From contig JAANOX010000001.1 in assembly GCA_020184695.1 (NCBI GenBank), forward strand, positions 1 to 32,628: a DNA stretch of 32,628 nucleotides, in the 5' to 3' direction. The DNA is from Histomonas meleagridis 2922-C6/04-290x (lineage: Eukaryota; Protista; Parabasalia). Made by a program: the position numbers and the translations under genes. Below the pieces are notes generated by a model. That model had not been told where the DNA came from, did not search any database, and was given only the letters and a program-made list of their open reading frames with translations. This document shows, in pieces, positions 6,056 to 31,686 of this stretch (positions are counted from its first letter, which is position 1; each line of letters starts with the position of its first letter).

Positions 6056-6967
6056 TGCTATTCTCGAGTTTCTAGAGAATTGAGTTGTTTAAGTTTGATC
6101 ACTGATCAAAAAGAAAGAAAAGAACTATAAAAAGCAAATAAAATCAATTCACACTCATGAATCGCAATCAATTGCTATAGTCAGTCAAAAAATTCATGAA
6201 AAACAAATATTGGAATGAATTTATCCAAATAAAAGTTGTGATTGTGCATTGATATTTTTTATTGCAAGTTCATCTAAATGTTTTCTTAAACCCCTATTTC
6301 AGCTTGAAAATTTTGAAATTTATAAAATAACACTCAAAATAACAGTTTATGTTATGCTTATTGTTGCTCAAGCTTAACTTCTCGAAAAATTGACAATATC
6401 ATTAAAACAATTACTATTATGTATTTTATGAGCGTTTTGAGATTAAAATAAATTAATATTAATGCAAGAAAATATTACTGAAATTAGAAATTATTGCAAT
6501 ATTCATGAGGTTTCCATTATTAGTTTAACATTATGAAGAGATGTCGTGATTGTCGAAACCAAATGCATAGATTTTCTAGATCAAAATTAAATATTATTAT
6601 ATTTGCTTAGTTATGTTGTTTTATTAATTCGAATATTATAAATCTTAATACACAACATTATTCAATGGAGTATTGTATTGAAAATATATTCTATAAATGA
6701 TAACAAAAAACGTATGATATCTCTGTTTCTTATGTTGATCCATTAAAATATATTGTGAATATAAGAAATTTATATAATTTTTTAATTTTATTCATTTGAT
6801 GTAATTTTTCATTTGTTTTTATTTTTCTCTTTTCCTTGTTCATTTCTTATACGATCTTTCATTCATTAATCTATCATTTTTTATGTGTATTTTCACTTAA
6901 TTTCATTTTTATAGCAATACTATCTATCTTCATTTTTTTTGTTTATTTTTTATTATTCTTTTCGCTT

Positions 6968-7520
6968 TTTCATCATTCTTTTCTCATTTTATTTATCATC
7001 TTTTTTGCTTATCTTGTATCATTCTTTCTCTTTACTTTCGTAATTCTTTTTGTTTATCTTTCATCATTCTTTTTGTTTATCATTCAGCATTCTTTGCGTT
7101 TATCTTTCATAAATCTTTTTGTTTATCTTTTGCTCATTTATTTTGTTTATCTTTCAGCATTCTTTTCTTTTTACTTTCATCATTCTTTGGGTTTATCTTT
7201 CATTATTCTTTTCTATTTACTTTCATTATTCTTTTTGTTTATCATTCAGCATTCTTTGAATTTATCTTTCATCATTCTTTTTGTTTATCTTTCATCATTC
7301 TTTCTGCTTTTCTTTCAGCATTCTTTTCTCTTTACTTTCATCATTCTTTGAGTTTATCTTTCATTATTCTTTGCGTTTATCTTTTATCATTCTTCTCTCT
7401 TTACTTTTGTTATTCTTTTTGTTTATCTTTCAGCATCCTTTTTGTTTATCTTTCAGCATCCTTTTTGTTTATCATTTAGCATTCTTTTTGTTTATCTTTC
7501 ATCATTCTTTTCTTTTTATT
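6968..7520. repeat. 23-bp minisatellite, about 24 diverged copies
   Basis: Consensus TTTCATCATTCTTTTTGTTTATC, with a recurring variant ending TTCTCTTTAC. It ends about 40 bp from the MULE transposase stop codon. Confidence 0.9.
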
Positions 7521-7558
7521 ATTATTTCCCACTGCTTTATATAAGTCTAATTCTCTTA

Positions 7559-9406
7559 TTATAGTTTACATGTTGCCGAGTTATGTCCTTCTTTCCCACA
7601 TTTATGGCATCGATATGTTCTTTTTGTTTTATGTGCACCGCATTTTTTTTGGTGATCAACAAATAAAGATTGTTTTGTGATTGGTCGACCTCTCTGTGCA
7701 ATAAATTCAGGCGATCCTGTGGAACATGTTTTTAAATTGTTAAATCCTATGAAAAGATCGTCAAATAATTTTCGTATTTCTGGATTTCTATTTGCCTCTG
7801 CTGCTATTGGAGATACCATATCCATAAGATTTGTATACTTATACATATTATAATTATTATTTACTGCAACTTGCACGGTTTGAATTTCTGTTTCTTCTGT
7901 TTCATCAAAATGCTGTGTAAAATAAATGTCTGGAATATCTTCTTCTTTGACCAAAGGAAATAGACCAGCTTTATACCTATTAAACAATATGTGGCAACAA
8001 GGTAAACCAAATTCTGTTTTAACTTTACAATTACAATCTTCAAAATTAATACTATTTGATAATGGAGAAATCTGTACATATACTTTTATAATATTATTCA
8101 TTTTTTCATATTCAGTATTTAAAATATTAGAACATAAATTACCAAGTTGCTTACCGTGATATAAATCTAAATTGATTTGAATTCTCTTTGTTGCAATATT
8201 TTTTTTAATAAGCATTTCTGCATGTAATAAAAATGCATCAATGATATTTTTTAATGTAACAATTTTATGATCTATCCAATTTTTAATTGTAGAAAAATTT
8301 CCTTCTGCTAAATTCGAAGTATAATGATTTCTTAGTCTATAATGAGCTAATATCTCCGGATCATAATACTTAAGATGTTTCAATAATAACTGCAAATGAG
8401 GTTTTTCTTTCGTATTTTTTTGGATTTCATTATTAATCAGTGAAACGAAATCTGATGCTTTCATTTCTCCATGAAATGATTTTATTAGCGTTTGATATAT
8501 TACTGAATTAACACCACAATGATCTGATACATTTCTCAATATATGAACTCTACAAAATACAATCTTTGAAGTTTTAAAAACATATTTAATTGCTTTTCTT
8601 TGAGATTCCAGTCGATCACATATAAATATTCTAGAATTAATATATTCAAAAAGAATAATTAAAAAATCAACAAAATCATTGAATGTTTTCCCCAATAAAA
8701 TACCTAAAGCAATCATTTGAGCTTTGTCATTCTCGTCGTAGCAATAACATAAAATTATTGGATACCTGTACTCATTAGTACACATAGTATCGTCCATCAC
8801 ACAGATATCTTGTGCATAGGGTTTGGATATAATGGAGCTATGAATTAAAGTTAAACCATGGAATTTATCATCTTTTTTTTTGAAATGTCACAATATACTT
8901 CTTACTCCATTCTTGAGATTCCGTTTCAAGTTGTTCGATTTCATTTATAAATGTTTTTGCTAAAGCATTTCTTGAATAGTTGTATAGTTGATTTGAAGAA
9001 ATTGATAAATTTAAATTTTTTCTAATAAAATATGGCGAAGCACCTTTAGAACGCAAATCAATAATTTCCTCTTTTTGTTTTGAAGTAAGAAGGCAAAAAA
9101 ACTTTCAACGTATCTCTTATTGATAGAGTGATTGTGAATCCATTCACCCGAACAATTACATAGGATTGAATCTCTGAACTTCACACTGAAGTGGCTTGGG
9201 CAATCCTTGAACCTGCACTTATAACAAACATATGATGTAATGTCTCTTTTTTTGGACTCAACAATTGAATATGGACATCGATGGATCGCCATTTGGTCTT
9301 TGATATCGATCTTGAAATCATCAAAAGCACTCATCCCAATTCTCCCTTTAATATAATCAATGAATTCAATGAGGGTGCTTTCTTTTATTTCCATTTCTAT
9401 CTGCAA
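7559..9406 (-). CDS. Mutator-family (MULE) transposase, ~610 aa, split by two homopolymer frameshifts
   Basis: N-terminal WRKY/FAR1-like CYKCRFKDC...HNH; DDE core DDTMCTN, ICDR, CRVH (CxxH), SNLAEG; SWIM finger CNC...GLPCCH; C-terminal CCHC knuckle CHKCGKEGHNSATC. The three ORFs join if one base is added to the A7 run at 9095-9101 and one is removed from the T9 run at 8873-8881. First ATG at 9394. Confidence 0.92.
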
Positions 9407-10215: not shown

Positions 10216-10680
10216 TTATTTTAAAATAATAATATCAAAGACATAATATATATAAGTAGAAAATATATTTTATGGCATATAATGAAGAAAAAATAATTTT
10301 TGATGTAATTAATGCAGATTGAAAAAAGTAAAAAAATTTCAAAAAATAAATATCATAATCAAATTCTCCATATGTTAAAACATATGGTGGTATATTATTA
10401 TTATTAGAATATTCAATGTATATGATTTTATTTAAAAAATTTTTCTTTTTCATGATGCCATTTTTGAATGAGTATTCAAATTACTAGGAATTGTGATAAA
10501 ATATCACCTATTCAATTTATTTTTGGATACTTCCTATTTTTGTCAGGATAATTCTGATATAAAATATAAAATGTCAGATTAACAAAAAATAATACTTGAA
10601 TTTTGTAAGCAAATAATGATTTAATTTTAATTTCATATTAATAACTTTTGTTTATTTAACACACTCTATAAAATGAAACG

Positions 10681-11047
10681 TATAATATATAATGTAATGT
10701 ATAATATATAATGTAATGTATAATATATAATGTAATGTATAATATATAATGTAATGTATAATATATAATGTAATGTATAATATATAATGTAATGTATAAT
10801 ATATAATGTAATGTATAATATATAATGTAATGTATAATATATAATGTAATGTATAATATATAATGTAATGTATAATATATAATGTAATGTATAATATATA
10901 ATGTAATGTATAATATATAATGTAATGTATAATATATAATGTAATGTATAATATATAATGTAATGTATAATATATAATGTAATGTATAATGTATAATGTA
11001 ATGTATAATATATAATATATAATGTAACGTATAATGTATAATGTATA
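10681..11047. repeat. 19-bp AT-rich tandem repeat (TATAATATATAATGTAATG)
   Basis: 16 perfect copies at 10681-10984, followed by about 3 degenerate ones. Confidence 0.95.
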
Positions 11048-14028
11048 TTGACTATTTATATTATACATTACATCACATTATCGTGATTTTTTGAATTACA
11101 TTGAATAATTCCCATTCAAAATATTTTTGTGAGAAAATATTCTATCTCAAATTTGATTTCTATGTTTTACATTTTTTGACATGAAATTTTCTGGGAATTT
11201 ATAAAATGTCATCAAATAGATTTGTTTACAAATCAATCAACACATGTTCAAATGCAATCGATTTAGAATAATTGAAATGATACAAGAATAATTACCTTTC
11301 AAATGCTTGATCCTAACTCTTAACTAATTGCAAATCTGCTGCATCATTATGTGTATTTTGTGGTTCTCCTTTAGATATTCATAATCAATATTATACACTA
11401 ATATCAAAAGAATGATTTATGTATTTATTCGAAACATCAAAAGTTAATGAGGGTCAAATAAACATTCGAGTTGTACTCCAAACGGTCGCCACAGAAATAA
11501 TATTGTTTAGTTAATAAATCGATACACATTTATAATTTTAATCTGTAAACGAAAAAAATATTCATAATTATTAATGCTCTTTGATAAATATACAATTATT
11601 TTAATTTTAATTATTTTATGATAGATAATCAATTTCACTTTAAATTTAAGAGTTTAAAAATCTCTCTATCACATTTATTAGAATTATATGATATTTTTAA
11701 ATTTTTCATTAATTTTGATTAATATTCAGTTAATATAGAGTTCTATTCATTTTAAAATCATAAAATCTTGAAAATTGATTTTGGAATATAATAAACATGA
11801 ATTAACTATAAAATTCATTAATGAACATGAGTAGGTATATACAAACACATATGAATTTGGACTAACATAAGTAAACATGAAGAATCATGAGTGAATAAGC
11901 AACAAGATATAATAGATCAAATGAAATAACATCATTATTTGAATCCATTTGGAGAAATTTCTAATTCAAGACTGTATTAAGTTTATTCATACTAAGTGTT
12001 TTATTTATTGTTGTGAATTAAAAGAATATTTAGAATTGTTTACTATTATTCGAATGTAATACAACACGAAAAATCGCATGGTTTTAACATTAATGAACAT
12101 AATCGCAAAAGACTAGTTTTTACAAACAATTTGGGTAATACTAAAATTTTCTATGAGAAATAATATATTATTTCAAGATTATTTAAATATAAATATAAAA
12201 TAATAAGTATTATGCGAATCTCCTAGCTATTCTCTTCTATATTATAATATATATCACCCGACAAATAAACACATTCAACACTCATACCACATGCAAGGAG
12301 AAAACACATAATTAAAATGAATAAGCATAAATAAACTTAATTTGACAAAATAAAATATAGAATGGAAGATATTAATTTTGTTGATAAGCATGAAATAGCA
12401 TCAGTAAATATAGAATAAAAATGAATAAAGTTGAGATAACATAAAGAAAAAAAAAATAAGTTAACATAGGATAACATTGAAAAACACTTAATATACATGT
12501 TCATTAACAAATATAACATAGAATGAATTAAATTAATAAATGTGAGTAAATATTATTTTTAAAGATGTATATTATATTAATTCGTTCATTATAATAAATA
12601 ATGACTTCTACTTTAATTTAGTCTCTTATAATTTGAATAATGTAATTTTTCTAAATATTCTAAGTTATCATGATCTATCAATGAATTTGATATAATTAGA
12701 TAAATTAGTATGATACCTAATTTAAAAAAATCCTCTTTATTCACAAAATATAATGCATAAGAAATAGTAGTAACTTGAAATGTAATAAAAGTAATTGTAC
12801 TGATGAATTCGAAATAAAAGATATAAATGAGCGTAGATTGCATTTTATATAATAAATAGGTTTATCTAAGAATAATTTTTCTCAAATATAATATTTATGC
12901 TACAATTATAAAAATTGTAAATTACAATTATTTTTCGAATCAAGGTTCGATGAAATCACTCATTCGAATCTTCAGATAATGTTCAATTTATATGAATATA
13001 TACATATATATAAATATGTATAAGTACTCAAGAATCACGAAGGAGACTTTTAAGATCTACCATTTAAATGTATTTATGTTGAACTATTTTTTTTATTAAT
13101 AAATGATTTATTCATTAATATTAATTATAACTATAATTATAAAAATTAACTAATTGTAATTATATTGAAAAATGATCGAGAAATATATATTTTTCATCAA
13201 TTTTTCATTAAATCAATCAACATAATGATAATAACTTCATACACAAGTTTTCTTGGTAATTTTAAGAATATTATAAAATATGAATTCATGTACATATGGG
13301 ACTATGAATATGTTGAATTCCCGTGTTTTTGGTAAAATTTGAAAAAAAATTATTATCGATTTAAAATTATTTAAATTTTTTGTCATTAATAATCATAAAT
13401 TGCATTAGATTCAACTTACAAAAAATATTCAAACATTTTTTCTATATGGAATATATTATTTCATCATTTGTTGCATACAAAAATGAAAAATTTACAAGAT
13501 AATAATGTTATCGCTCAAAAATGTGTGTACCATGGTTCATAAAAATGTTAACTTTTTGAATCAATTAGTTTGGAATTAACGACAGAATTTTCTGTATTAA
13601 TATTAAATTATCATTCGATAATTGAATGAACATCATTTTTCGGAAAATTATTTTATTTTTTCTCAGAATTACAATATATTTGGTTTGCCAAAATTATGGT
13701 GAATAAATATGCATACATTATTAAACATGAAAAATGTGGTTGAAATCCGAAATCGATAAATTATTGAAATTGCATTATTTCGAAAAAATTCAATTTTGAA
13801 TATGTATAATAATATTTTATCGAGGTTCCGACATAGGTCAAGTTTATTGATGTGCTATATCAATGAATTAATTTGATTTTTAAAAATTGATATGATTAAT
13901 TTGACATCAAATTCATGTAAAAAATTGATGGAATTAAAGTATATTAGAGTTCATAACAATATATAATTGATTAAATGACAATTTTTTTTTTAAAATTTAA
14001 TCTAATTTTAAACGAAATTTCTGAAATT

Positions 14029-14509: not shown

Positions 14510-15147
14510 TTGAAAGCAAAATGTTATTAGTTCTCAATGAATTAAAGAACGTCGGAGAAGACAGACTTGCTAACTTCGATACATTAAAATCAATCATTAC
14601 TGATAAAACCATACGTATTAATGAGAAAAATCAACCAAGAAGAACTTCTGAAAACGTTGCTAATTTAATATTTATTACTAATAACAGTTATCCTATTAAA
14701 ATAGAATCAGGTGACAAAAGATATGTTGTATTATTATGTAACGGTAAGTATAAAAATAATCATATATTTTGGAGCAATATGTATAACAGTTTTATTACTG
14801 AGTTTTATAATCATTTATTAACATATTTTATGAACAGAGATATTAATGATTATAATTCTAGAATTATACCTATAACTGAAGCTAAACAAGATTTAATAGA
14901 AGCCTCTAGAAATTCTGTTGAACAATTTATATGTGATAATTATGATAAATTATGTGAGGGTTGGCTCTGTAGTGATGCATTATTTAATGAACCTTTTGAA
15001 ATTAAAATGAGATCTTTTCGACTTCAATCAAAAGATAAATGTAATAGAAAAAGAGTTCGTAGAGAAGGTGATTTATGTTATTGTTACTTTCTAAAGGATG
15101 AGTATAAAAATATATATCATCAAACAGAACATATTGATAATGATTAA
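14506..15147 (+). pseudogene. SF3 (D5-like) helicase, 5'-truncated
   Basis: Walker B LLVLNE, motif C NLIFITNN and arginine-finger region DKRY are present. Walker A is absent because the gene is cut at ~14506. Confidence 0.8.
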
Positions 15148-18100
15148 ATTTTAAAAACAGCTACTGTATTATTATCAATTATTGAAGTTATTTTTCCTAT
15201 AATCATACTGTTAATTTTTGTTGTTAATACAGCATCATCATCTAAAATACTACCGTCATATAAAATTATATCGCCAACAGAATATTTACTAGAATCATTA
15301 ACGTTAAAATAATAATCTCTGTGAGTTGCAAAATCAACAGTATCTTGATTAATACTTATATCTTGTTTTATAGTATCACCTATTTGAAAAATACTGTTAG
15401 CAATATGTTTATCAACACATATTCCTATAAATTCTTTATAAGAACCTGTACTTTTAACAGAAGGTATGCAATTAGTAGAATCTGTAGTAGAAGTGTATTT
15501 ATTAACATTATTTTCATTAACTAATTTATAAACATCACCTGTTATAAATACTGGTTTTCCGATAATAAAATTATCGATATTTTCATTTTCAGAAATAGGA
15601 CTGTTATGAGTTATTGTTTTATTCATTTGACCTCCTCCTGAACTGCTAATAATTGCTTTTCTATAAGTATCATTAGAATAATGCCAAAACCCTAATTCAT
15701 TTTGATAAGAAGTTATTCTCCAAGTATATGTTCCGGGGGCTGCTGTTGATTGATCATGATATACGAAATCTAAAAATCTACCTGTTCTTAATACAGCATT
15801 TTGATAAGGTACTATACCATTTGATTCATGAGTATGACTCGTTAATGCTATATTATTTAAGTTAATTCCGTTAACAGTATTACAATTTATATTACCGTTA
15901 CTGTTAAAAGTAATTGATCCAGAACCGTTTCTTTTAAACTCTAATGAATCAGTAGATGTTATTCTCCAAGAGTAATCACTGTTAAATTCATTATTATCAT
16001 GAAAATCTATATAACAACCTACTTCCATAACACCGTCTGATTTAATAGTAGCTATACAAGGCAATGTGTTTAAATAATTTCCTGCTGAAGAACCGTTATT
16101 CAAATAATAATTATTAATTTTACCGTTAACAGTTAAGTCGTTATTTATAGTATTATGAGTATGATTCATTAAAGAATATTTATCATAATGATTATGACTT
16201 GTTAAAAAGAAGTTATCAACAGGTATATTATTAATATATTTTACTTCTAAATTACCATATATTATTAAATCGTTGTTTATAGTGTTGTGAGTATGATTTA
16301 TTAATGAATATTCGTCGTCATGATTATGTGTTGTTAATGAGTATTCACTGTGATTATGAGAACTTGGCGGAAAAGTTGTTGGTTTATCAGTAATATCATT
16401 ATAACTATGAGTATGATTTATTAATGAATATTTATCGTCATGATTATGTGTTGTTAATGAAATATTATTAGTATCAATTCCATTAATACTATTACAACTA
16501 ATATTACCGTTTTTATATATACTTACGTAATTACCGTCACAAGTTTTAAATCTTAAACAAGTATCAATATTATCATCAGAACCTACGTAATGTTCTATTA
16601 CACTACAATCATCGCCATATGGTAATACACCTATTTCCATTCTGATAGAATTACCTGTCACTGCATTAGATCTATAAATAAATAATTTTTTATATATATT
16701 AGTATCATCTGGATATTTGCTGCAATCAATATTGATATTACGTTTTGATGTTAATATTCTGCAGGAAATATCATTATCTACTAATAAATCTTGTTCAACC
16801 TTTGTCCAAACGCCGTATTCATTATAAGAAATTCCTGTTAAAGCCTTATTTATATCAGTTAAATTATCATTAGTTAAATACTGATCATGAGTATATTTAT
16901 GTTAAATATATCATTACTAATAACGAATAATTCATCTAAATCAATGCCGTTAATATAATTACATTCTATATCACCGTTAACTTTTAAATTTTGATCAATA
17001 TTAGTATATATTTCACAGATATCCTCCTCTTCATTAATAATTGTTTCTAATAAATCTTTATGATAAGTAATTCCTGTATAATTATTTAAATCAGAGCTTA
17101 TTAAGTATTGATCATGAGTATGATTTATAAAACGTTTATATATCTGACAGTCAACTAATAACATACCTAATTCATTAGTTCTCTGTCCTTTAGAAACATC
17201 TTTATAATAATATTTTAAGTTCTTAAATATAGTATTCATTTCAGGAAACAGATTTATTAAATAGTTATATTCATTAAAATTATTATCGATATCAGTATCA
17301 TCAGGACCTTCTAAATCATCTAAATTTTCATCAGTTGATATATCATATTCATCAAATACAACGCTTCTTAATGTAGGTATAGGTATATAACCCCTGGCTC
17401 CTGTAAATACATTTTTTAATCTGCTAATTAACGACATAGCCCAAGAACTGTTTTTAATACTGTTATATACTTTACTTGCCAGTTCAGCAAATTCAGCTAA
17501 TGACATAGCAAAAGAAAAGGCATCTAATAAGTATTCTAGCCAGTTCTTCTTATATCCTTCACCATCTTCTCCAGGTGCTCCTGTTAATAATTCTTGTATC
17601 TCATCATCATCTATAATCATTTGTTTTGTTAAATAATATTCTGATGTTAATACTCCGTCAACATTAACTATACCATAAGTATGACCACTGTCTTCTAACA
17701 TAATACTATTACCGTTAGGAAAATTAATTAATATATTGTTTTCAGTAATTCCTTCATCGGTGATATTATCATAAGTTGATATATTAACGCCGTTTTCAAA
17801 TAATATTACATCAGAAATAGTTAAAATACCGTCTTCAATAAGTGCTATATTATTAGTATCAATTTCATTAATTTTACCGTTAACAATAAGATCTTGATTA
17901 ATTAATGTATATTTTTCATAAATATCCTCCTCTTCCTCCTCGTTAGTTTCAATAAGTGTTTCGTTATAATATATACCAGTTAATTTATTATTAATATTAT
18001 CTAAATTAGCACTTGTTAAATAATCACTGTGAACATGATCTATTAAAGCATATTTATCATCATGATTATGTGTTATTAAAGAAAAACTGTCAACAGATGT

Positions 18101-18899
18101 ATTATTTATAGAATTACATTGAATATTGCCGTTATTATTAAAACTAATTGTTTTACCGCCTATTTGCTTGAAAACTTAATGTATCAGTTATAGCTCTAAT
18201 CCGCCAAGTATTATCTTTATTATAATCATCTCTATAATGAAAATCAATGTATTCTCCTACTTCCATAACGCCGTCATTTTTAACAGTAGCTATACAAGGA
18301 ATTGTTATTGTTGAATTAGATCCTCCTCCAGCACTGTTTAGAATATAATAATTATTAATTTTACCGTTAACAGTAATATCATTATTAAATATATTATGAG
18401 TATGATCTATTAAAGAATATTTATCGTCATGATTATGATCTATTAAAGAATATTTATCATCATGATTATGATCTATTAAAGCAAAATCTTCTGTAGAATA
18501 GCCGTTAATAGTATCTATTAATAAATTGCTTATATTAACAGTATTATTATCTTCATTTATTTTAACAAATTCTTTATATAAAGTCAATACTTTATCAATA
18601 TCACTAAACATTTGTTTTAAATAAGCATTATTCATAATATTTGACCCTGTAATAATATCACTTACTAAAATATCATTTATGAGAACAAGGTTTCTAATAC
18701 TGTTATCTAAAGGATTAATTATTATATGATTTCTTCCGTAAGTAAATATAAATGATTTATCTATACTATTAATTGTTAATGAACATATACCGTTACTAAT
18801 AGTATCTGCTGTTTTACTGTGATTAGAATATACAACACTATTTTTATTTAATAATGATTTTACAACGTTTTCAATTCTGTCAATCCTATTATTTAACAT
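15144..18899 (-). CDS. ~1,250-aa fibre/tail-fibre-like virion protein (three track ORFs joined by two 1-nt frameshifts)
   Basis: After FQAN at ~18161 the shifted frame is open (GGKTISFNNNGNIQC...FPNGNSI) straight into ORF 16874..17701. Restoring one base at ~16895 gives NINHTHDQYL, which is open into ORF 15144..16661. The protein has 15 HxH repeats and PCIATxKxDGVMEVGxYIDFH modules. Confidence 0.75.
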
Positions 18900-18918: not shown

Positions 18919-19744
18919 ATGTATAAAAATGAACGTCAAATGAGCACTAGCGTATCACAATTACCTGTTGAAGAAATATATACAAATTTTGATGTACAAG
19001 AAAATGAACAAAATATTGATAAATTAGATAAAGGTAAAGGTTATACTTTTCGTTTTCCACAGCGTTGGATTGAGTGTCCAAGTCAAAATAAAGTTATCAG
19101 TTTAAGACGTTTAAAAATAACACCTACAAGTCATACTATTATGTTAAAAATTTGGGCTAAAGGTCCGAGTCAATCAAGCGGTCTTACACGTAATGTTACT
19201 TTATATATTCAATCAAATAATACATTACGTGAAATATTATTTGATATGTGTAATCAATTTAATAACTTAGCAACAAATTATATATTATTATTCGATTTAG
19301 ATGAAAACAATACATTAAATATCTTTTGTAAATATAAATCTGATACACAAACAATAAATCAATGCAATTTTTGTTTTCAAGATGTCAAAAGCACTTCTAA
19401 TGAAAATCTAACAAATTTCTTAAAGTTTTTGAATCAAGATACTTCACAAACAAATATTGATAAATTAAACAAAATCTAATACAAGCTTGCAATTTGATAA
19501 TGTGTGGGACCGAGAATATATTGAATTTAATGCTTCATTTAGTGATAATAAACGCAGATTTATAGGTTTAAATAATGATTTTTATGATAAACCGACTGTA
19601 TTATTTAATCCTCCAACAGACGGTAATACTTTTAATATAACATTTTCAAACAGTAATAAAAAATTTATATATCCAAGATACTGTAAATTTATTATACAAT
19701 TAGTATTTATATATAATTATCGAAATGCAGTTACATTGAAATAA
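18919..19744 (+). CDS. Conserved Maverick protein (~275 aa), possible single jelly-roll minor capsid protein; frameshift at ~19473
   Basis: ORF 18919..19479 continues in the shifted frame as KSNTSLQFDNVWDREY... The termini are beta-rich. The function is inferred. Confidence 0.55.
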
Positions 19745-19771: not shown

Positions 19772-20910
19772 TTATATATTTTTAAAGTATTGCTTTTCAA
19801 TATTACTCATTATTTGAGGAGTATTTCCGCGTAAATAACTGACGGGTATTGTATCTTTATAAGGTTTATCTCCCGGTACTTTAAATAATACAGTATATTT
19901 ATTTTTATTCTTATCATAATTAAGTATTTTAATAATTTCACCGTTCCGTCTATTAGGTATTGTATTTGCAAACTTAGGTTTATGATGATAATTATCTACA
20001 ATAATTAATTGATATCTGGGTTTGGTTATAACAGTCCCGTCTTTAGCAATTAATGTATACATATTACCTTTGCGGTCATCAATTTTATACATTTCTCTGC
20101 TAATTTGATAACGTTTTTTATGAATACCGTCATTTCTAAATAATATATATCTTACATATAAACCTACAGGAATAATTAAATCTTTAATTTTTTGTTGTTT
20201 ATCAGCTAATTTTAAACACTTAAATATATACTCTTTTTCTAAGTCTTTATTATTAAACATTTCATTAGGAGTACAACCTATAGCAGAATGATAACTGTTA
20301 TTATAAGTATTTATAAATTTATTCATTCTTTTTGGACTTATATAAGTATATTTATCATCATGAGACTGATGTTTAGATTTCTCATTAGGAGTATTCATAT
20401 CACGTAATGTTCTAATAAATCTGTCAATAATACCTAAACTACTGTGATTTTTATCTGTAATAATATGCATACTGACATTATTATCTGTTAATAATTTTAC
20501 ATTATTTTTATCTAAAAAACCGGACTCTTCATCAGATGTTAATTTTACAGGATGATATTTATTAATAAATTGTTTTAATGTATAATTAATGTCTTTAGCA
20601 GATTTAGTATTTAAAGGATATACTACGACGTATCTGTTATTAGTACCTATAAATATATGCCAATATCTAGGATCATGTTTTCCGTTATCATACAATCAAC
20701 AAACCAAGTATTTGGTCTATTACTAAATATTTTTATCATATACGGTTTAATATCTTTTATTTTAATAAATTTATCCTTTAAACGTTGATTTACAATATAT
20801 TTAATTTTTTTACTTTTAACATTAAAATGTTTATTTTTGACATGTTTCTTTACATGATTATATGTTTTAAAATGAGTCTTATCTACAGTATCATTTATTG
20901 ATGTTTGCAT
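19772..20910 (-). CDS. Retroviral-like (Maverick) integrase with a chromodomain-like C-terminus; frameshift at ~20696
   Basis: WFVD(L)YD...HIFIGTNNRY, LTSDEESGF and HSSLGIIDRFIRTLRD are present, and the C-terminal IIKILNY...KYTVLFK resembles a chromo fold. One missing T (GAT TGT versus GAT TTG TAT) joins 20647..20910 to 19772..20695. Confidence 0.9.
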
Positions 20911-20949
20911 ATTATTTATTACATATAACAGTTATTTTTTGATAATAAA

Positions 20950-21384
20950 ATGGGATTAGGTAATATATTTGGAGGCATACGTAAATTAGTTCAAGGAGGC
21001 GGTAGATTATTTAAAAATATTATTGATAAAGGTAAACAAATTTGGGGTAAATTATCACCTATAATAAATAAAGGCGGTAAAATCATTAGTAAAATACCGG
21101 GAGCTATACAAACTATTAGAGATAAAAAACAGCAAATAACTGATAAAATTGATCAAATTGTGGATATGATTCCCGATAGTAAAACTAAAGATAAAATTAA
21201 AGGTGCTGTTGACAGAGGCAAACAAATATCTGATAGAATTATTAGCAGAGTTCAACATGTTAGTGATCAAGTACAACCTTATATAACTGCCGGTAAGAAT
21301 ATATACAATAAATTAAATCAAACAAAAACTAATATTCAACAACCAAATAATCAACTAAATATGTCAAATGCAAGATTGTTATAA
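20950..21384 (+). CDS. Basic amphipathic protein with Gly2, candidate membrane-penetration protein
   Basis: Intact 144-aa ORF starting MGLGNIFGGIRKLVQGGGRLFKNIIDKGKQIWGKL, with helical hydrophobic periodicity. Confidence 0.7.
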   Translation: MGLGNIFGGIRKLVQGGGRLFKNIIDKGKQIWGKLSPIINKGGKIISKIPGAIQTIRDKKQQITDKIDQIVDMIPDSKTKDKIKGAVDRGKQISDRIISRVQHVSDQVQPYITAGKNIYNKLNQTKTNIQQPNNQLNMSNARLL

Positions 21385-22115: not shown

Positions 22116-22586
22116 ATGCCCAAAAAATACCTCAAAAGATTAGGTAATAAGTCCAAAAAACCGAGAAAATCATTACGTAAAAAATTAGTAAAACATACTA
22201 AAAAATCATCAAATAATATTAATAGATCATCAAATAATATTAATAATTCTAATAACAACTCAGCCAGATCAAAAATAATGAATAATTTATCTCCTATGCC
22301 GATATCTATATCACAAACGCCTCCTAATATTAATTTAGATGCTGTACATAATATGAGAAATAATAATGATATTTTACAACAACAAATTAATGATATTAAA
22401 AATCAAAAAGAGTCTGAATTTGTACGTAAAAAATTATTAGATAAGCAAAAACAGGATATATTATCAGAAACTAAACGTCAGCAGCAATTATATGAAGATG
22501 GTGGTGTAATATCATAGATGAAGAACCAAATCATCGAGAGCAAAGAATGAAGTATATTGAAAATTCATTAATTAAATATCAAAACG
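22116..22586 (+). pseudogene. Lys-rich basic N-terminus plus coiled-coil viral protein, truncated by the retrotransposon
   Basis: MPKKYLKRLGNKSKKPRKSLRKKLVKHTKK. A shifted frame after ~22500 continues WCNIIDEEPNHREQRMKYIENSLIKYQNE until RT sequence starts. Confidence 0.6.
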
Positions 22587-24767
22587 AAAATTCCAGAATT
22601 ATGGAAAATATCAAGAACTATATTGTTATTTAAGAAGAATAATCCAGATGAAATCATCAATTGGAGACCAATCTCAATATCTCCAACTTTATACAGAATT
22701 ATGATGTGCCACTTTGCACGATGCATTCAAGATTTAAATGTTTCTTCGCCATTCATAAGTTCAGTACAAAAAGGTTTTAAAACCAATATCAATGGGATAA
22801 CTGAACACATTACGAATATAAATGAAATAATTGCACAATCAGTGAGGTCAAAAGATTCGATTTATATTACAACATTAGTTTTCGCCAAAGCCTTCGATTC
22901 AGTACCTCACAAGCTTATTACTTGGTCATTAAATCAATTAGGATTCCCGAATTATTGTATCAAATTAATAAAAGACTTATATACAGATACCAAAACAAGA
23001 ATAGAACTAAGAAATAAACCTTCAGATTGGATTAACATCAATAGAGGTGTCAGACAAGGTTGTCCTCTATCACCAACACTATTTAATTTATGTCTTGAAC
23101 CTTTAATTAAAGCAATACAAAATTATAATAAAAAAGATGGAGTAATTATAGAAGATCCAATGAGAGAAAATGAATTTTTCTTTTTTAATATTCAAGCTTA
23201 TGCAGATGATGTTATATTGATTTCTAATACACAAGATGGAATGCAAAATATGCTTAAAACAGTAGAAGAATTTTGTAAAATTTTTAAACTTAAAATAGCT
23301 TCACAAAAATGCAAAACTATATCTTATATAAATTTTAATAATAAAAGACCAACGTTGAATGAAAACTTTACTATTAATAATAAAGAAATACCAAATCATC
23401 CATTAATGGAATATATAGAATATTTAGGTGCACCAATAGCAATAATCGCAGTACAACATTCTCAAACTAAAATCAATAAAATTAAACAAGAAATCATACA
23501 AGTAATTAATTCTCCTTTAAAAGTTAATCAAATAATAGATGCAATTAAAAGAATAATTACTCCTCAATTAGATTTTGAAATGTTAAATGGTTTATGCTCT
23601 ATTAAAGAACTTAAAAAACTTGATGAATTTATTATAGGTTCAATAAATCAAATATTAAATACAAAAGGTTTACCAAAAGATTTATTTTATACACATTAAA
23701 GAAGGAGGTTTAAGTTATGTCATTTTGTAGAAAGAAATTATGTGTTCAATTAAAGAACATTTACAGGTTTATTATTATCAAAAGATATAAACATTAGGAA
23801 TTTTATTAGAATGACAATGTACAAAGAATTAGATTTCAGGAAAATTAAAGTCAATGAAAACTCACCTTATTTTGGAATTCCATTTGATGAAAAGGGTAAA
23901 ATCATACAAAATTCATATAGTAAAACAAATAGTACATTTTGTAGAGCAACAAAATCATTATATAACTTAAAAGTAGGTTCTAAGCCAAATTTAGAAGAAA
24001 ACAATCGTATTATTTATCAAATTAAAAACAAAGAAAATGAAGAAGAATAAGAAGAAACAGAAGAATGTATTAATGAAAAGATATCACAAAAATATCCAAA
24101 TAAAATGATACAGAAAGAAACATGCAGATAACCTTAAGAAGTTATTATTTTGAGCACATACTTTTGCACAATAGATAAATCAGCTGACTCAAATTTCTTT
24201 CTATCTGATTTTAGAGCACCAACAAGTAATAATATCATTAAATTCGCAATTCTAGCAAGATGTAATAATTTACCGACAAATGAAATCCTAAATAACAATA
24301 ATTTAAATATAAATTCTAAATGTAATAGATGTAACTTAAATCAAAATGATTCATTGATGCATAGAATTAATGATTGCATTAAAATTGAAAATATAACTAC
24401 TAAAAGACATAATGCAATAGTAGAAGAAATAATCATCAAAGAAAATAATTATAAAGGTAATAATATCATATTTAATGAAAACACAGGAGTAATTGATAGA
24501 AATCACAAAACAATCGGAACATTCAAGCCTGACATTTGGTATATAAATAACAATAGATTAACAATAATCGAAGTCAATTCCCCTTATGGTACAATTAGAA
24601 ATCTTGATGACAATCCAGAATCTACTTCAGTAATCAGAATAAAAAAAAAACAAAATAAATATAAAGAGAATAAAGAGTTATGCAAAAATAGACTTAATAT
24701 ATATAAGTCGACCTATATATCATCATTAATTCAACACAAGGTAATATACCAAACTACTAAAGAATAA
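22587..24767 (+). pseudogene. Reverse transcriptase - CCHC - RLE endonuclease ORF, disrupted
   Basis: KIPELWKISRTILLFKK, WRPISI, QKGF, LVFAKAFDSVPH (catalytic Asp changed to Val, GTT), RGVRQGCPLSP, YADD, YLG; then CNRC...H...C, RHNAIV and KPDIW...IIEV...KY. There are several stops and frameshifts. Confidence 0.9.
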
Positions 24768-25488
24768 AAAAGATTATTTTCAATGGAAATAAAAAGGTTG
24801 ATACATTTAGTTTTTATGTGTTATTGCAGCACTGTAAGAATCAATGTTGATATTCTATAAGATATACGAGAAAGACAAAAATAAAAAATAAGAATACTAA
24901 CTATAATATAAACATTAATTTAGAGAGAGAAGAAGAAGATTGTAATGTTATAGATGAAGATAATCATAATCCTGAAGAAGAAGATGAAGAAAAATCAGAA
25001 GAAGTACTATTCTCAGATTTTTTCTCTAATTCAGAACTCTTTAGATATGAACGAAGAAGAAAAAGTGAAGGATTTGTTATATTTACATCAGCAGAAAATA
25101 AGTATAACAAAAACCCGTAAAAAGGGAACAAAACAAAAATCTATAATAGAAGATCTGTATCATAATAGATAACAACAAAGCAAGGAAGAATGAAGATAAC
25201 TGGATGAAGATGTACTCAATATATAGAGGAAAAAGTATTGATGAATTACGTAAAACGTATGAGAGTTGAACACCCGTCTAGACTGTTACAATACGCGATT
25301 GATAAGAAGAAGAAAGCAGAAATTATTGAAGATTCTACTATTAGACAGAATAAGAAGATCGGAAAAGTGACACAAACTGTTAAAACGGTTTCGACCACCT
25401 CAGAGGTCAATCATAATATGGATCATAATAGTGGGATCAACCTACCATAATTTAAGACGGACGCGTCATTATACAATACATACTCATC
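22587..25488 (+). mobile_element. 5'-truncated non-LTR retrotransposon of the RLE type (R2/NeSL/CRE-like), nested in the Maverick
   Basis: RT, zinc-knuckle and restriction-like endonuclease coding sequence, followed by an acidic tail and a 3' region. The ends are approximate and no TSD was found. Confidence 0.85.
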
Positions 25489-25491
25489 CCT

Positions 25492-27030
25492 TTAGAAGAT
25501 TGGTATAACGCAGTAGATGATTGTTTAAAATTATCAGAAATTATACCCGGTAATTATGAATACACTACAGCAACCTCTTACGGCAATGTAGGTGATATTA
25601 ATGAAGGTGATACTACATATGTAGATATAGCTACTGATAGATTTAAAATTATTAGTTTAGACAATTCATATATTACTTTAAAACAAACTGTTAAAATAAC
25701 AGTTCCTGATCAAACAAATTTATTATTTAAAGAATATTATATTGGTTATAAGTGTTCATGTGATGCTATTGATCAATACAGAATTTATAGTAATACTGAT
25801 AAAATACAAGATATTCATAATGCTAGATATGAATGGTTTATGTTTTATAACAGTTTATCTGATGAAGCTAAGTCCGGTAATGATTGTTTTGCAACAATTG
25901 ATAAAATTAGAAATCATGATCCAATGGTACCGGGTGTTTATGTTGATTTATCAGCAATAAATGCTGCCAAGGAAATTACTGTCGAAATACCTTTACGTAT
26001 ACCTTTATCATACTTCTTATTATTATTTAATATGAGATATTATCCTAATTGGGCAGGTAAACTATCTATAGAATTAATGCCTTCTTATCAAAATTTAGTT
26101 ATAGCACCAATACCTAATTATGATAATATATTGTTAAAAAATGATGATAGCGATAATGATAAGAGAGAATATTATATTGATATTCGAGATATTATTAATA
26201 GCGGTGCCGTAGACTTAGGATTTCGTAATATAAATGAAACTGTATAAAATAATATCAAAGAAACTAATTCATCTGGATCATATACATATACTGAACAACA
26301 ACAACAATTTATATGTAATACTCAAGTAACAAAAGACATCAAAATTAAATTAGCAGAATATTTATTAAAAATGGATGTATTTAACGCATTAGCTGCTAAA
26401 TATATACAAGTTCCGTTATTATTTCCTATACATATATGTCAAGTAAGAGACTTCACACAAGAATATATAGGCGATAAATCATTAATAGATACCGCTGCTA
26501 CTATCGGAATTAGACATTGTGATACATTATTTACAGTATTTCGCGTAAATCAATATTCTAGAACATGTTTCTTAAATCCACATATTAGTTACAGATTTAA
26601 TATTGACGGCAAAATGTATCCCCGAGAAGACTACACAACTGTAGATGACGCTAAAAATATTAATATGTTATTGGACAGTGTTAATTTAAACGGAAGTTTA
26701 TTAAGCAGTCTTAATGAAGATTTAAAAACATCAATACAGCCATATTATTATAAAAATACTTATAATGCTTCTGGAGTAAAAACTACAACAAGAATTTGGC
26801 ACGGTAAAGATTTCCAAGGCGGTATTTCAACAACGGGTACTATACAAATAGAACTTCACGGAAATCGTGTAAATACAACTGATTATTTAGCTACAAGTCC
26901 AAATGCATCACCTGTAGGTATATATTTTGAAGATGCTATATTAAAAATACGTTCTGTAAAACCTGAAGGAAGGTCACAAATTGAAATTACTAATGCATCT
27001 GTAGAACAAGTTATTAACGGATTACGTTAA
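25492..27030 (+). pseudogene. Major capsid protein (double jelly-roll), N-terminus lost, one in-frame stop at 26245-26247
   Basis: The frame is open from 25492 (LEDWYNAVDD...IISLDNSYITLKQ...YYIGYK) and stays in frame across a single TAA into ORF 26371..27030 (RFNIDGKMYP...GGISTTGTIQIEL). It spans ~510 codons, is beta-rich and lies next to the penton and ATPase genes. No upstream ATG exists before the stop at 25453. Confidence 0.75.
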
Positions 27031-27068: not shown

Positions 27069-27875
27069 TTATTTTTGTTTGTCTATATTTTCATCAGATG
27101 CTGTTATAAGTAAATTACTGTTTTTAATATCTTCATCAATGTCTTCATCAGGTATTGGTCTTATAGATATTGTTATATACATAGGTGATAATAAATGAAC
27201 TTCTTGCATATTAGCATCTACTAATTTTAATTCTAAATGTGACAAATCACTGCTGTTAATCAATACTTCAAAATCAGCATTATTAACAATAATAGGATAA
27301 TTATTACTAAAAGAATTATCAATTCTGAGTATTATTTTTGATATATTGATGTTTTCATTTAAATTTCTATAACTACTTTTACCTAAATTACTTACTATAT
27401 ATAATACAGGTGTTGATAAATAATTCCCTACAGAATCACATAATATTTCATATTTATTCGTATCTTTATTTAAATAAGTTGATGTTAAAGGTAAATTTGT
27501 ATTATATAAACCTGTTAATTGTTTTATATTATAACTCATATCATTTACAGTAAATTCATTAGCACTACTAAATATTAATCTGCTTGTAGAATCAGTCTCA
27601 ACAATAACATTACTTTTTGTAATTAAACTTGTTAATAAACTCGCAAAAACTTGTATAATTTACATCAGTATACTGTGTGTTAAAAGTATATTTTGTATTA
27701 TTGATTATTATATAATCACCTCTTTTTCAATAACTACTATATTACAATGAGTTGTTAATGAAGTAATTATCATTTTAGCAAATCTTGTATGAGGTAATGG
27801 TAAATTAACATTAATTCTGTTATAATGATTAACATCATATGATGAAATCATATAATCAATTATTTCATTAAACAT
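27069..27875 (-). CDS. Minor capsid protein (penton-like), two compensating frameshifts at ~27722 and ~27650
   Basis: The ATG at 27875 gives MFNEIIDYMISS...GDYIIINNTKY...VFASLLTSL...MSYNIKQLTGLY...STPVLY...LVDANMQEVHLLSPMYITI (~268 aa). It is convergent with the major capsid gene. Confidence 0.65.
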
Positions 27876-29514: not shown

Positions 29515-31686
29515 TTATAAATTCATCAATGTTTTTATAGGATCTTCACTGTTAATACATATATTTTTATATTTGTTATTAACGTGATATATATATTCAT
29601 TATTAATATTTTTACCGATCCAATTATCAGCTGATTTAATATATATTTCCTTGAATATGTGTTCAATTTTAAACTGACCTAATTTATCACCAATATATCC
29701 TAAATCCAATAATTTGTTATAATCTTCTTTAGATATCAATAAAGAATCAACTTTAGAATAATATACATCAGATATTAAACTTTTAATATGATTCATTTTA
29801 TCATTAAAATTATTTAATACTGATCTTGCAAATTGTGGATAAGTAAAGTGTTCTCTATAAGGTTTTATTGTATATACATAATTATTGGTATCATATTTAA
29901 TAACGTAAGGAGCAAATTCTTCGATATATTTATCAACGCAGCTTTCGCTGCAACCAGCTTTGCTGGCATTAGTCTCTAATTTTTTATTAAAATTAGGAGG
30001 TTTTCTAATAGATGAACCCCAACAACTATTCATCATAAATTTCAATGTAGTAGATAATTTATTATTGTTATTATTTTTGGCATTCATTCTTAAATTATAT
30101 AATATTTCAATAAGTTCTTTTATTTTAGTATTTTGACCTTTAAAATTACAGTTATTATCAGGTTTACCTATAGGTATTGATGTTACAGATGACATATATG
30201 CACCGTTTAAATCTATATAATAATACTTTCCTGTTAAATGTATTTGTTTCCAGATGGTCTTAGGAAATATACATTCATTACGTATTTTATTTGAAATATC
30301 ACCTGATAACTCATATACATTATCAAAACAACCGTATTCATACATTATTTTTAACATTAAATCGCTGTATCTGTAATAAGCTTTAACATTAATTTTTAAA
30401 CCTAAATTATTAATAATATCTTGTAATTCATTTAACCTGTAGTTAACTTCATTATCATCAATATTATACCCAAATAATTTCTTACCGTGTTTCATTCTTT
30501 TAACAAAATCAGGTATATACTTCTTATCAGGTATATGTATTAATCTATAACTGTTATAAGATTTATTAATAGTTTTATAACTCCAACACAATTTATTATA
30601 AGCATTAATATCCATAGGTTTTAATAAATTGCATTGTTTCATAGTATTAATTATATAATATACAGATATAGGTTTAGAAGCATATTCTATTGTTTTATTT
30701 TTATCATAATTTTTAATACTGTCAATTGATATATTAACACTTTCGTTTAACATATAATGATTATCTATAATGATTAATTTTATAGTTTTATTATATTGTT
30801 TACCGTAATCTCTGTGAGTAAAACCTTTATTAGCCATATATCTGACATTAATATGTACTTTTAATAAATCTGATATATTATTTAATTCTGATAAAGGAAC
30901 TGTTCTAGTATTTATAAATGATCTTAACATATTAATTTCGTTATCTGTAAATAAATTGCTAGCAATAAATGATTGTATCAAACAAGATTCATTAATATTT
31001 TCATTGTTGACGTTATTGAAAATACCATATTTTGTAAGATCTATATCAGTAGTATTAATATAAGGGAAGAATCCTGGATTAACTCTTTTACCGTTCTTTA
31101 AATCTTTAAATTCAAACTTTATAGATTTAATATTTTTAAAGGTTTCTAATGCTAAAGTATTACTGTCACTAATATCATCTTTTTCATTAATTATATTATA
31201 TAAGAAATTAACTGTATTCATATTTCCGTGGTAATAAGATATATTATTATTATCGTCAATAATTGTCATTCTAATATCTTTATTTATCTTAGGACCTACT
31301 GATTTTATAGCATACATTAATGATTTTAACATAATATTGTTTTTATTAGAATTCACTGTATGAGTAAAGTCTTTCTGAACCATTAATTTCTTAATTAATT
31401 CTTTAGTTATATTGTTAATAGATTTATTATGTATCGGTTTATCTGCAGGTTCATCTTCGGATAAAGCTATATTATAATAATCATCAAAGTAATCATATTT
31501 ACTGCGTTTATTGTGTTTGATTTTATACTGTAGTTGATTAACTGATAAATGATCATATTTATTATTCATTTCATCATAAACTTTGTATTTGGTTTTAGTA
31601 TTTATATGTTCAAAATTATCTGGTAATGTATAACCGTAATTATTGAACAATTCTATTACTTGTTTTGTTGTTAGCTTTTTAGGCAT
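29515..31686 (-). CDS. Divergent, short family-B DNA polymerase-like protein
   Basis: Motif A YIDLNGAYMSSV, motif B KFMMNSCWG, motif C variant YYSKVDSLLI, then DKLGQFKIE, in the correct order. The ORF is intact (723 aa). Confidence 0.8.
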   Translation of the reverse strand: MPKKLTTKQVIELFNNYGYTLPDNFEHINTKTKYKVYDEMNNKYDHLSVNQLQYKIKHNKRSKYDYFDDYYNIALSEDEPADKPIHNKSINNITKELIKKLMVQKDFTHTVNSNKNNIMLKSLMYAIKSVGPKINKDIRMTIIDDNNNISYYHGNMNTVNFLYNIINEKDDISDSNTLALETFKNIKSIKFEFKDLKNGKRVNPGFFPYINTTDIDLTKYGIFNNVNNENINESCLIQSFIASNLFTDNEINMLRSFINTRTVPLSELNNISDLLKVHINVRYMANKGFTHRDYGKQYNKTIKLIIIDNHYMLNESVNISIDSIKNYDKNKTIEYASKPISVYYIINTMKQCNLLKPMDINAYNKLCWSYKTINKSYNSYRLIHIPDKKYIPDFVKRMKHGKKLFGYNIDDNEVNYRLNELQDIINNLGLKINVKAYYRYSDLMLKIMYEYGCFDNVYELSGDISNKIRNECIFPKTIWKQIHLTGKYYYIDLNGAYMSSVTSIPIGKPDNNCNFKGQNTKIKELIEILYNLRMNAKNNNNNKLSTTLKFMMNSCWGSSIRKPPNFNKKLETNASKAGCSESCVDKYIEEFAPYVIKYDTNNYVYTIKPYREHFTYPQFARSVLNNFNDKMNHIKSLISDVYYSKVDSLLISKEDYNKLLDLGYIGDKLGQFKIEHIFKEIYIKSADNWIGKNINNEYIYHVNNKYKNICINSEDPIKTLMNL

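What the first reader, a model, noticed from the sequence alone, without database searches (positions are those of the whole stretch)
15144..18899. Hidden ~1,250-aa bacteriophage-tail-fibre-like protein in a eukaryotic Maverick
Seen in sequence: three track ORFs are one gene with two 1-nt lesions. It contains 15 HxH repeats (including HTHSYNDITDKPTTFPPSSHNH), two PCIATxKxDGVMEVGxYIDFH...WRI modules plus a third degenerate one (~15720-15820), repeated NNDLTVNG units, and a ~160-aa C-terminal domain after an SSSGGG linker (15144-15626). Established: HxH motifs in trimeric fibres such as the T4 gp37 needle coordinate metal ions. Inference: the DGVMEVG-YIDFH and ITDKPTTFPP units resemble bacterial phage fibre repeats, and the C-terminal domain (FIGIC...VGDII...IIGKI) may be a phi29-type intramolecular chaperone. 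This would be a phage-derived, modular receptor-binding fibre on a protist polintovirus.
Basis: partly seen in the sequence, partly recalled or inferred. Interest (0 to 1): 0.85.

Follow-up and report, generated by a model that had tools for sequence, protein, structure and literature searches.

The report
Broken Maverick fibre with unusual chaperone
This is a frameshift-broken copy of a long gene that is intact in related virus-like transposons (Mavericks) of gut protists; it likely encodes a three-stranded attachment fibre built from phage-like repeats, ending in a predicted folding-helper domain that carries a histidine where the phage version has its cutting glutamate.

Summary
Confirmed. 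The three minus-strand ORFs (18899-15144) are one gene of about 1,250 codons with two frameshifts. Relatives of about 900-1,230 aa match the pieces in order, and 16 of 18 Maverick loci holding both ends keep one ORF. There are 14 in-frame HxH motifs (1.4 expected). The repeats and three knob-like modules resemble phage tail-fibre parts, and the distal 331 aa are predicted to form a trimer (0.86; best control 0.00). The 160-aa C-terminal domain folds confidently as a beta-tulip domain. It matches phi29 gp12 D4 (Z 8.1, tied with capsid cement proteins) and ends proteins with many unrelated front parts, so it likely acts as a gp12-type folding chaperone. It is not Peptidase_G2 by sequence: His (123/125) with an upstream Thr (122/125) replaces the DFAE glutamate. 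Whether it self-cleaves is untested. Phage-like fibres on polinton-like viruses, including Trichomonas ones, are published, and a gp12-D4-like domain is known in PBCV-1 Vp260. Direct phage origin is not shown: neither end domain has a phage sequence match. New here are the Thr/His chaperone family and, in relatives, fibre tips shared with a non-Maverick, probably large-virus, family. This copy is a pseudogene. New variant of a known kind.

The parts
15144..18899 (-). Fibre pseudogene, about 1,250 codons, two frameshifts
18510..18899 (-). N-terminal domain (~130 aa), 62-63% identical to the gut-metagenome family; likely capsid anchor (inferred)
   Evidence: no phage match
18360..18480 (-). First HxH run (3 motifs) and an NNDITVNG unit
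18156..18317 (-). Knob-like module 1 (GVMEVG-x-YIDFH...WRI)
18153..18175 (-). First frameshift, absent from most other copies in three of four runs
17096..17758 (-). Optional ~220-aa insert between two copies of a repeat unit; helical and amphipathic with a three-triplet Gly-X-Y stretch; function unexplained
   Evidence: pLDDT 43.7, unreliable
16877..16905 (-). Second frameshift (position approximate)
   Evidence: not bridged
16150..16460 (-). Main HxH run (7 motifs) with the ITDKPTTFPPSSH phage-tail-type repeat
15867..16079 (-). Knob-like module 2; 48% over 46 aa to Cellulophaga phage phi38:1 gp085
15642..15839 (-). Degenerate module 3
15144..15626 (-). C-terminal beta-tulip domain, gp12-D4-like; predicted trimerising chaperone
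15606..15617 (-). Conserved T-x-x-H motif at the position of gp12 D692-E695
15318..15320 (-). Arg where 125 of 126 aligned sequences have Gly: likely decay of this copy
18919..19744 (+). Divergent neighbour, split here, one 288-aa frame in L032; beside the fibre gene in all 18 loci that hold both fibre ends; possibly penton-like (untested)
19772..20931 (-). Integrase-like gene (read from sequence; no Pfam hit for the part scanned)
25456..27030 (+). Probable major capsid gene, interrupted by a stop; one 542-547 aa frame in L003 and L004
28056..28952 (-). A32-like packaging ATPase
   Evidence: PF04665, E 4.4e-5
29515..31686 (-). Protein-primed polymerase-like ORF; 31-32% to an L019 ORF region that hits PF03175

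Best explanation
This is a frameshifted copy of a conserved Maverick gene that likely encodes a long homotrimeric virion attachment fibre whose C-terminal beta-tulip domain likely acts as a gp12-type intramolecular folding chaperone. Shown: one gene, intact in relatives, inside Maverick gene clusters; mosaic of HxH repeats, phage-type repeats and knob-like modules; a swappable C-terminal domain with a near-invariant T-x-x-H. Predicted: beta-tulip fold and trimer. Inferred mechanism: three C-terminal domains meet first and set the register; the shaft zips from there, each HxH triplet binding one metal ion on the axis; the conserved N-terminal domain anchors the fibre on the capsid; the variable modules bind the protist surface. 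I commit (about 40%) to release of the chaperone by self-cleavage just before the conserved Thr, with the His as base in place of gp12 Glu695; otherwise it stays on as a trimerisation cap. The copy in the window makes no full-length fibre. The host is likely a parabasalid.
For: One ORF in relatives; 16 of 18 loci with both ends; 54 family proteins of 898-1,234 aa with 5-16 HxH. Maverick context: all 18 loci with N-domain, insert and C-domain carry at least one other gene of the window's element. Fold: AlphaFold2 pLDDT 93.7; phi29 gp12 C-terminal fragment 3gqh Z 8.1, rmsd 3.6 A, 103 aligned, model 4-160 on chain 692-854; BFVD best rows Tetraselmis virus 1, Pyramimonas orientalis virus and Colwellia phage 9A tail protein, E 2-3e-5, TM 0.55-0.64. 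Position: 137 of 145 representatives end within 5 residues of the C-terminus, the other 8 within 30, behind varied front parts (HxH rods, BNR-type repeats, YadA repeats). Trimer: three copies of 15147-16139 scored 0.86 against a best control of 0.00; contacts agree at least 73%, pLDDT at least 74; the mark was reached by 21 of 30 solved same-chain pairs and 0 of 23 single chains. Motif: Thr 122/125, His 123/125; 3gqh begins at D692 and the full-length 3suc chain has Gln for Glu695. Phage-like parts: PHROG tail families E 8e-6 to 5e-4; Bxb1 gp4 and R2 pyocin fibre, weak, E 0.02-0.7; module to PHROG 22284 tail fibre in 5 of 8 members and to phi38:1 gp085. HxH-iron sites in T4 gp37 and pyocin fibres: PMC6116203, PMC6957217 (passages). 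Host: BspA-type LRR and MULE genes in the window; a Histomonas meleagridis homologue (P0090).
Against: Z 8.1 is tied with capsid cement proteins (8.1, 8.0, 8.0, 7.8) and lies at the level the tool calls a possibly common arrangement; Foldseek ranks 3gqh only 33rd, E 0.17. No sequence or profile similarity to gp12 D4. The Thr-to-D692 register rests on the first aligned pair only; the His-to-E695 pairing assumes no gap. The trimer pass may come from likeness to solved fibre trimers, the calibration used two copies, and only 331 of ~1,250 residues were folded. No Pfam hit for any piece. No virion, expression, metal or cleavage data. The middle insert is unexplained.
Confidence: 0.72

Rival explanations
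1. The C-terminal domain is a retained capsid-binding base, like phage cement proteins or the phi29 head-fibre base, so the fibre is anchored by its C-terminus and the N-terminus points outward.
For: Cement proteins tie with gp12 D4 (Z 8.1-7.1) and the gp8.5 base scores 4.8-4.9; they lead the Foldseek list; weak PF22758 cement hit on P0088, E 0.0025; the catalytic Glu is missing.
Against: The same near-identical domain ends fibres of Mavericks and of a non-Maverick family and also occurs in genes among cellular genes (L067, L068), which is hard to square with one capsid partner. The cement matches are proteins of tailed-phage and herpesvirus capsids. The PBCV-1 fibre P22, resolved next to its capsomer as a beta-helix (PMC9617893, passages), has a weak gp12-D4 match near its C-terminus (E 6e-6).
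Confidence: 0.12
2. The domain is an uncleaved trimerisation cap or receptor-binding head: chaperone-like in origin, but the T-x-x-H is structural or binds metal and nothing is cut.
For: His replaces Glu; a second conserved His (120 of 126) and a Cys (123 of 126) exist; His178-180 of the folded fragment lie in the predicted interface.
Against: The Thr sits exactly at the first residue of the cleaved gp12 fragment; the head is more conserved than the modules before it, unlike typical variable binding heads (inference).
Confidence: 0.35
3. The three ORFs are separate genes, or are joined by programmed frameshifting.
For: Two of 18 loci (L013, L034) also lack a single frame; about half of the X3 depth agrees with the window at the first break.
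Against: 16 of 18 loci and dozens of proteins are single frames; three of four runs mostly lack the first shift; other genes of this element are broken too.
Confidence: 0.03
4. The gene was taken recently and whole from a bacteriophage.
For: Phage fibres such as phi38:1 gp085 carry the same HTH repeats and module.
Against: No phage match for either end domain; none in IMG/VR scans; the 6 prokaryote-genome loci are short MAG contigs, 3 with Maverick genes; no phage place covers 80% of piece C. Only short modules are shared and direction was not tested.
Confidence: 0.05

Closest known systems
phi29 gp12 D4 auto-chaperone (Peptidase_G2, PF11962; PDB 3gqh, 3suc); Carin-1 Dpo31 D4
   Same: Predicted beta-tulip fold (Z 8.1), C-terminal position, about 160 aa, trimer, fused to unrelated front parts. 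D4 is described as tandem beta-tulips directing trimer assembly (bioRxiv 10.1101/216911) and as lost from Dpo31 (PMC13317679); passages seen.
   Different: No sequence similarity; T-x-x-H instead of D-F-A-E; passenger is an HxH/knob rod, not a beta-helix; cleavage and ATP binding untested.
Phage-like fibres of polinton-like viruses (PMC12220804; Gezel-14T Ltf, bioRxiv 10.1101/2022.07.28.501842)
   Same: Long modular proteins with phage-tail repeats on a Maverick/PLV; Ltf is found in virions; T. vaginalis PLV fibres carry collagen plus PTR repeats (passages seen).
   Different: Those end mostly in the S74 chaperone, which that paper reports absent from parabasalid PLVs; this family ends in a gp12-D4-like domain and has a unique middle insert.
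PBCV-1 fibre P22/Vp260 (A122/123R)
   Same: Trimeric fibre of a eukaryotic DNA virus with a gp12-D4-related C-terminus (bioRxiv 10.1101/216911; PMC9617893, passages).
   Different: Beta-helix shaft; its domain still matches gp12 by sequence, this one does not.
T4 gp37 needle, R-pyocin and Bxb1 gp4 fibres
   Same: HxH motifs and the DKP-x-x-F-P-P-S-x-H-x-H type repeat.
   Different: Matches are short and weak (E 0.02-0.7); different ends; metal binding not shown here.
Phage capsid cement proteins (FCWL1, HFTV1, XM1, Pam3, E217)
   Same: Same beta-tulip fold, tied Z scores.
   Different: Stand-alone capsid proteins; here the domain ends a long fibre.

Membership tests
Peptidase_G2 / gp12 D4 chaperone (PF11962) | Match to the Pfam profile | tested here: not met
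   No hit at E 10 while the gp12 control scores 3.6e-84; hhalign probability under 1%
Peptidase_G2 / gp12 D4 chaperone (PF11962) | Beta-tulip fold of D4 | tested here: met
   Predicted model pLDDT 93.7; Z 8.1, rmsd 3.6 A, 103 aligned; tied with cement proteins
Peptidase_G2 / gp12 D4 chaperone (PF11962) | C-terminal position on exchangeable passengers | tested here: met
   137 of 145 within 5 aa of the end; varied passengers
Peptidase_G2 / gp12 D4 chaperone (PF11962) | Glutamate at the E695 position | tested here: not met
   His in 123 of 125; register. The catalytic role of E695 is recalled and fits the Gln in full-length 3suc; the original paper was not held
Peptidase_G2 / gp12 D4 chaperone (PF11962) | Homotrimer | tested here: met
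   Prediction only: 0.86 vs best control 0.00; may reflect likeness to solved trimers
Peptidase_G2 / gp12 D4 chaperone (PF11962) | Self-cleavage after folding; ATP binding | not testable with these tools
   Needs expression
Peptidase_S74 chaperone (PF13884) | Pfam match | tested here: not met
HxH metal-binding phage fibres / PTR (PF12789) | Repeated HxH motifs | tested here: met
   14 vs 1.4 expected, maximum 6 in 5,000 shuffles
HxH metal-binding phage fibres / PTR (PF12789) | PF12789 match | tested here: not met
   No hit for window pieces; 2 of 67 C-domain relatives scanned hit it, one above cut-off
HxH metal-binding phage fibres / PTR (PF12789) | Axial metal bound by six His | not testable with these tools
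   No metal was modelled or measured
Maverick/Polinton element | A32-like ATPase and protein-primed polymerase | tested here: met
   PF04665 above cut-off; polymerase only through an L019 relative with PF03175
Maverick/Polinton element | Retroviral-type integrase and double jelly-roll capsid | tested here: inconclusive
   No Pfam hits; assigned by reading the sequence and by conserved neighbours; not folded
Maverick/Polinton element | Terminal inverted repeats | tested here: inconclusive
   No long inverted pair inside the window; the element may run past the window end

The most novel reading that the evidence does not exclude
Mavericks and large DNA viruses of gut protists share and swap a family of fibre tips whose beta-tulip chaperone cuts itself off with a Thr/His pair, a third self-cleavage chemistry beside Ser/Lys (S74, recalled) and Glu (gp12 D4); parabasalid Mavericks therefore still make infectious, host-targeted particles and change host range by tip exchange.
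Probability: 0.3. Interest if true: 0.72.

Novelty: new variant of a known kind. Interest (0 to 1): 0.48.

Why it matters
Parabasalid Mavericks fill up to about 40% of the T. vaginalis genome and are handled as transposons (PMC12289875, passages). An intact, conserved, module-shuffling fibre gene argues that they form or recently formed infectious particles, and names the protein to look for. The domain fills a stated gap (no S74 chaperone in parabasalid PLV fibres, PMC12220804), defines a family with no Pfam model (211 clusters at 50% identity), and makes a simple biochemical test possible: does a Thr/His pair replace the gp12 glutamate? The general idea of phage-like fibres on such viruses is already in print, which limits the surprise.

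Tried and rejected
No whole genome was held, so module numbers among the host's own copies could not be counted; contig joints that skip modules or the middle insert (table 5) have short sides and are only hints. No RNA holder was listed; that says nothing on expression. Pfam found nothing on any piece. Profile comparison with gp12 D4 failed. The middle insert folded at pLDDT 43.7 and was not fold-searched; a search of 238-758 aa proteins found only P0255. A tree of 23 C-domains was unresolved (6 of 20 inner branches starred; L042 and L064 left out because the motif pattern missed them), so no origin is claimed; no module tree against phage proteins was built. IMG/VR scans found no relative; a scan with the module alignment could not run. 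The module profile found only one weak PDB row (9b45, E 0.12). The ESM Atlas gave no answer. An S74-type structure is not among the 50 rows, which does not exclude it. Literature: searches listed no description of this domain family; only the top rows were listed (for example 20 of 971, and the 20 of 299 were noise), so absence from print is weakly tested. PMC11161782, 10.64898/2026.10.13.758929 and 10.64898/2026.06.19.733378 had no 'fiber' passage; 10.1101/2022.02.22.481544 gave nothing on gp12. Supplements were not read; Fig. S6 and tables of PMC12220804 may show parabasalid fibre architectures. Two look-ups of earlier scan findings returned nothing.
Full report
Observation. The minus strand holds three stop-to-stop pieces, A (18899-18156), B (18175-16877) and C (16901-15147); A and C share a frame and the span is 1,251 codons. 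A search of longer proteins with C returned 11 hits, five of them 1,126-1,159 aa; these match A at 52%, B at about 35% and C at about 36%, in order. A third lineage, P0255, crosses from A to B to C-type repeats in one frame. Of 69 metagenome loci found with the C-terminal domain, 18 also hold the N-terminal domain and the insert, and 16 of these 18 keep one frame. In four public runs (at most two samples, one study, possibly the source) most depth lacks the first frameshift: 21,352 of 22,209, 15,869 of 15,869 and 409 of 409, but only 281.5 of 591.1 in X3. The second break is not bridged by a listed contig. HxH occurs 14 times in frame against 1.4 expected.

Context. The window carries an A32-like ATPase (PF04665), a DUF5906 helicase-like fragment, a reverse transcriptase insertion, a MULE transposase and BspA-type LRR genes. 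Relatives of the ATPase, the integrase-like, capsid-like and polymerase-like ORFs flank the fibre gene in the metagenome loci; one such polymerase hits PF03175. The capsid-like gene and the gene beside the fibre are split here but whole in relatives, and the C-domain has Arg where 125 of 126 sequences have Gly. This element is decayed. A parabasalid host is inferred from gene content and from a Histomonas meleagridis homologue (P0090). The run X1 laid 5,516 contigs on the region, 537 of them under 90% alike, which points to a large, diverged family; depth is no copy number.

Shaft. The ITDKPTTFPP repeat hits PHROG tail families (E 8e-6 to 0.04) and, weakly, Bxb1 gp4 and the R2 pyocin fibre. 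The module hits PHROG 22284, a tail fibre, in 5 of 8 aligned members and 77 phage records at E up to 10, best 4e-6 for Cellulophaga phage phi38:1 gp085. That protein has HTH repeats, one such module (43 bits) and an S74 chaperone. HxH triplets bind iron on the axis of T4 gp37 and pyocin fibres (PMC6116203, PMC6957217; passages). Among 54 intact family members HxH number runs from 5 to 16, and P0012, P0039, P0088 and P0117 have both ends without the middle insert, so the gene is modular. The insert is amphipathic and conserved in three lineages but folded poorly (pLDDT 43.7) and is unexplained. Three copies of the last 331 residues scored 0.86 against a best control of 0.00, with contact agreement of at least 73% and pLDDT of at least 74; the mark was reached by 21 of 30 solved same-chain pairs and 0 of 23 single chains, the calibration used two copies, my alignment was not used, and the pass may come from likeness to solved trimers.

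C-terminal domain. It has 211 relatives at E 0.001 among 50%-identity representatives. Of the 145 new ones listed, 137 end within five residues of the C-terminus, behind very different front parts. The model is confident (pLDDT 93.7). Against 48,161 chains the top row is the phi29 gp12 C-terminal fragment (Z 8.1, rmsd 3.6 A, 103 aligned), tied with capsid cement proteins; Foldseek puts the cement proteins first and gp12 33rd, none significant. Both groups share the beta-tulip fold, and gp12 D4 is a tandem tulip that directs trimer assembly (bioRxiv 10.1101/216911, passages). Among predicted viral structures the best rows are Tetraselmis virus 1, Pyramimonas orientalis virus and a Colwellia phage tail protein. 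Position on the chain, not the Z score, favours the chaperone reading. By sequence it is not Peptidase_G2. The structural alignment starts with the conserved Thr on D692, the first residue of the cleaved gp12 fragment; gp12 reads S691-D-F-A-E695 and the full-length crystal form carries Gln at 695. The family has Thr (122 of 125) and His (123 of 125) at the D692 and, if ungapped, E695 positions (126 of the 145 representatives plus the window were kept after dropping partial matches, 125 rows filled at these columns). The catalytic role of E695 is recalled; the paper was not held. I infer either a Thr/His self-cleavage or an uncleaved cap.

Origin. Neither end domain matches any of 50,697 phage records; IMG/VR scans were empty; six loci in prokaryote genomes are short MAG contigs, three with Maverick genes. 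The domain also occurs in other Maverick families (L002, L019), in very AT-rich contigs that look like large viruses (L054-L064, L069; inferred), and among cellular genes (L067, L068). The tree did not resolve. So the parts list is phage-like, but direct capture from a phage is not shown.

Tip sharing in relatives. A 663-aa family shares its last 225 residues at 97% with the Maverick fibre P0048. One exact 20-residue word before the C-domain is in 12 of 17 members of that family and 22 of 54 Maverick fibres. L038, 99% identical to that family over 498 nt, carries a P-loop ATPase and a divergent NifS-like gene and none of the window's Maverick genes. A large DNA virus is inferred; egoviruses are reported to infect parabasalids and to have given KilA to their polintons (bioRxiv 10.1101/2024.03.23.586382, passages). 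Against this: some contigs of this set are visibly chimeric with bacterial genes (P0044, L030, L031, L041).

What is known. Phage-like fibres are described across polinton-like viruses, including collagen-PTR proteins in T. vaginalis PLVs, with S74 reported absent from parabasalids (PMC12220804, passages; supplements not seen). Gezel-14T Ltf is in virions (bioRxiv 10.1101/2022.07.28.501842, passages). PBCV-1 Vp260/P22 is a trimeric fibre with gp12-D4 homology. D4 of Dpo31 is cut off like that of gp12 (PMC13317679, passages; PMC4690869, passages). My searches (top rows only) listed no account of this T-x-x-H family.

Verdict. A real, broken copy of a conserved Maverick fibre gene. It works, most likely, like a gp12-chaperoned trimeric fibre, but is not a member of Peptidase_G2 or S74. 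New variant of a known kind; interest 0.48.

Noticed in passing
L031, L037, L038; proteins P0037, P0060, P0067, P0070-P0083 vs P0048: A 663-aa fibre family, in L038 beside a P-loop ATPase and a NifS-like gene, shares near-identical distal segments with Maverick fibres (97% over 225 aa); possible tip exchange between a Maverick and a large DNA virus. Chimeric contigs are a caveat.
   Followed up: partly
L067:7955-10507, L068:7958-10507: 850-aa gene with BNR-like repeats, one knob module and the C-terminal domain (T-x-x-H kept) among cellular genes (SMC, NatB subunit, Sin3): possible host capture of a viral fibre.
   Followed up: partly
window 996-1178 (-): Short remnant of a second fibre gene copy, 45% to piece A over 83 columns.
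   Followed up: partly
window 20950-21384 (+): 144-aa basic protein with a strongly amphipathic N-terminus (moment 0.62), conserved in 6 loci; resembles a membrane-lytic entry protein such as adenovirus protein VI (recalled, untested).
   Followed up: no
window 22572-24764 (+): Broken non-LTR reverse transcriptase inserted inside the Maverick (RVT_1, E 5.6e-29).
   Followed up: no
window 27069-27659 (-) and 18919-19744 (+): Two ORFs that read like penton (minor capsid) genes, both conserved in related loci; not tested by fold.
   Followed up: no
window 10553-11133 and 6927-7617: Tandem arrays with 19-nt and 23-nt periods; the first may lie near the element's left end.
   Followed up: no
L072, L073, L076: Maverick contigs filed inside bacterial MAGs in the prokaryote genome collection, probably mis-binned.
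   Followed up: partly
L054-L064, L069: Very AT-rich contigs (14-23% GC, L056 excepted) with long fibre-like ORFs, up to 2,247 aa, ending in the same domain; probably large viruses of gut protists.
   Followed up: no
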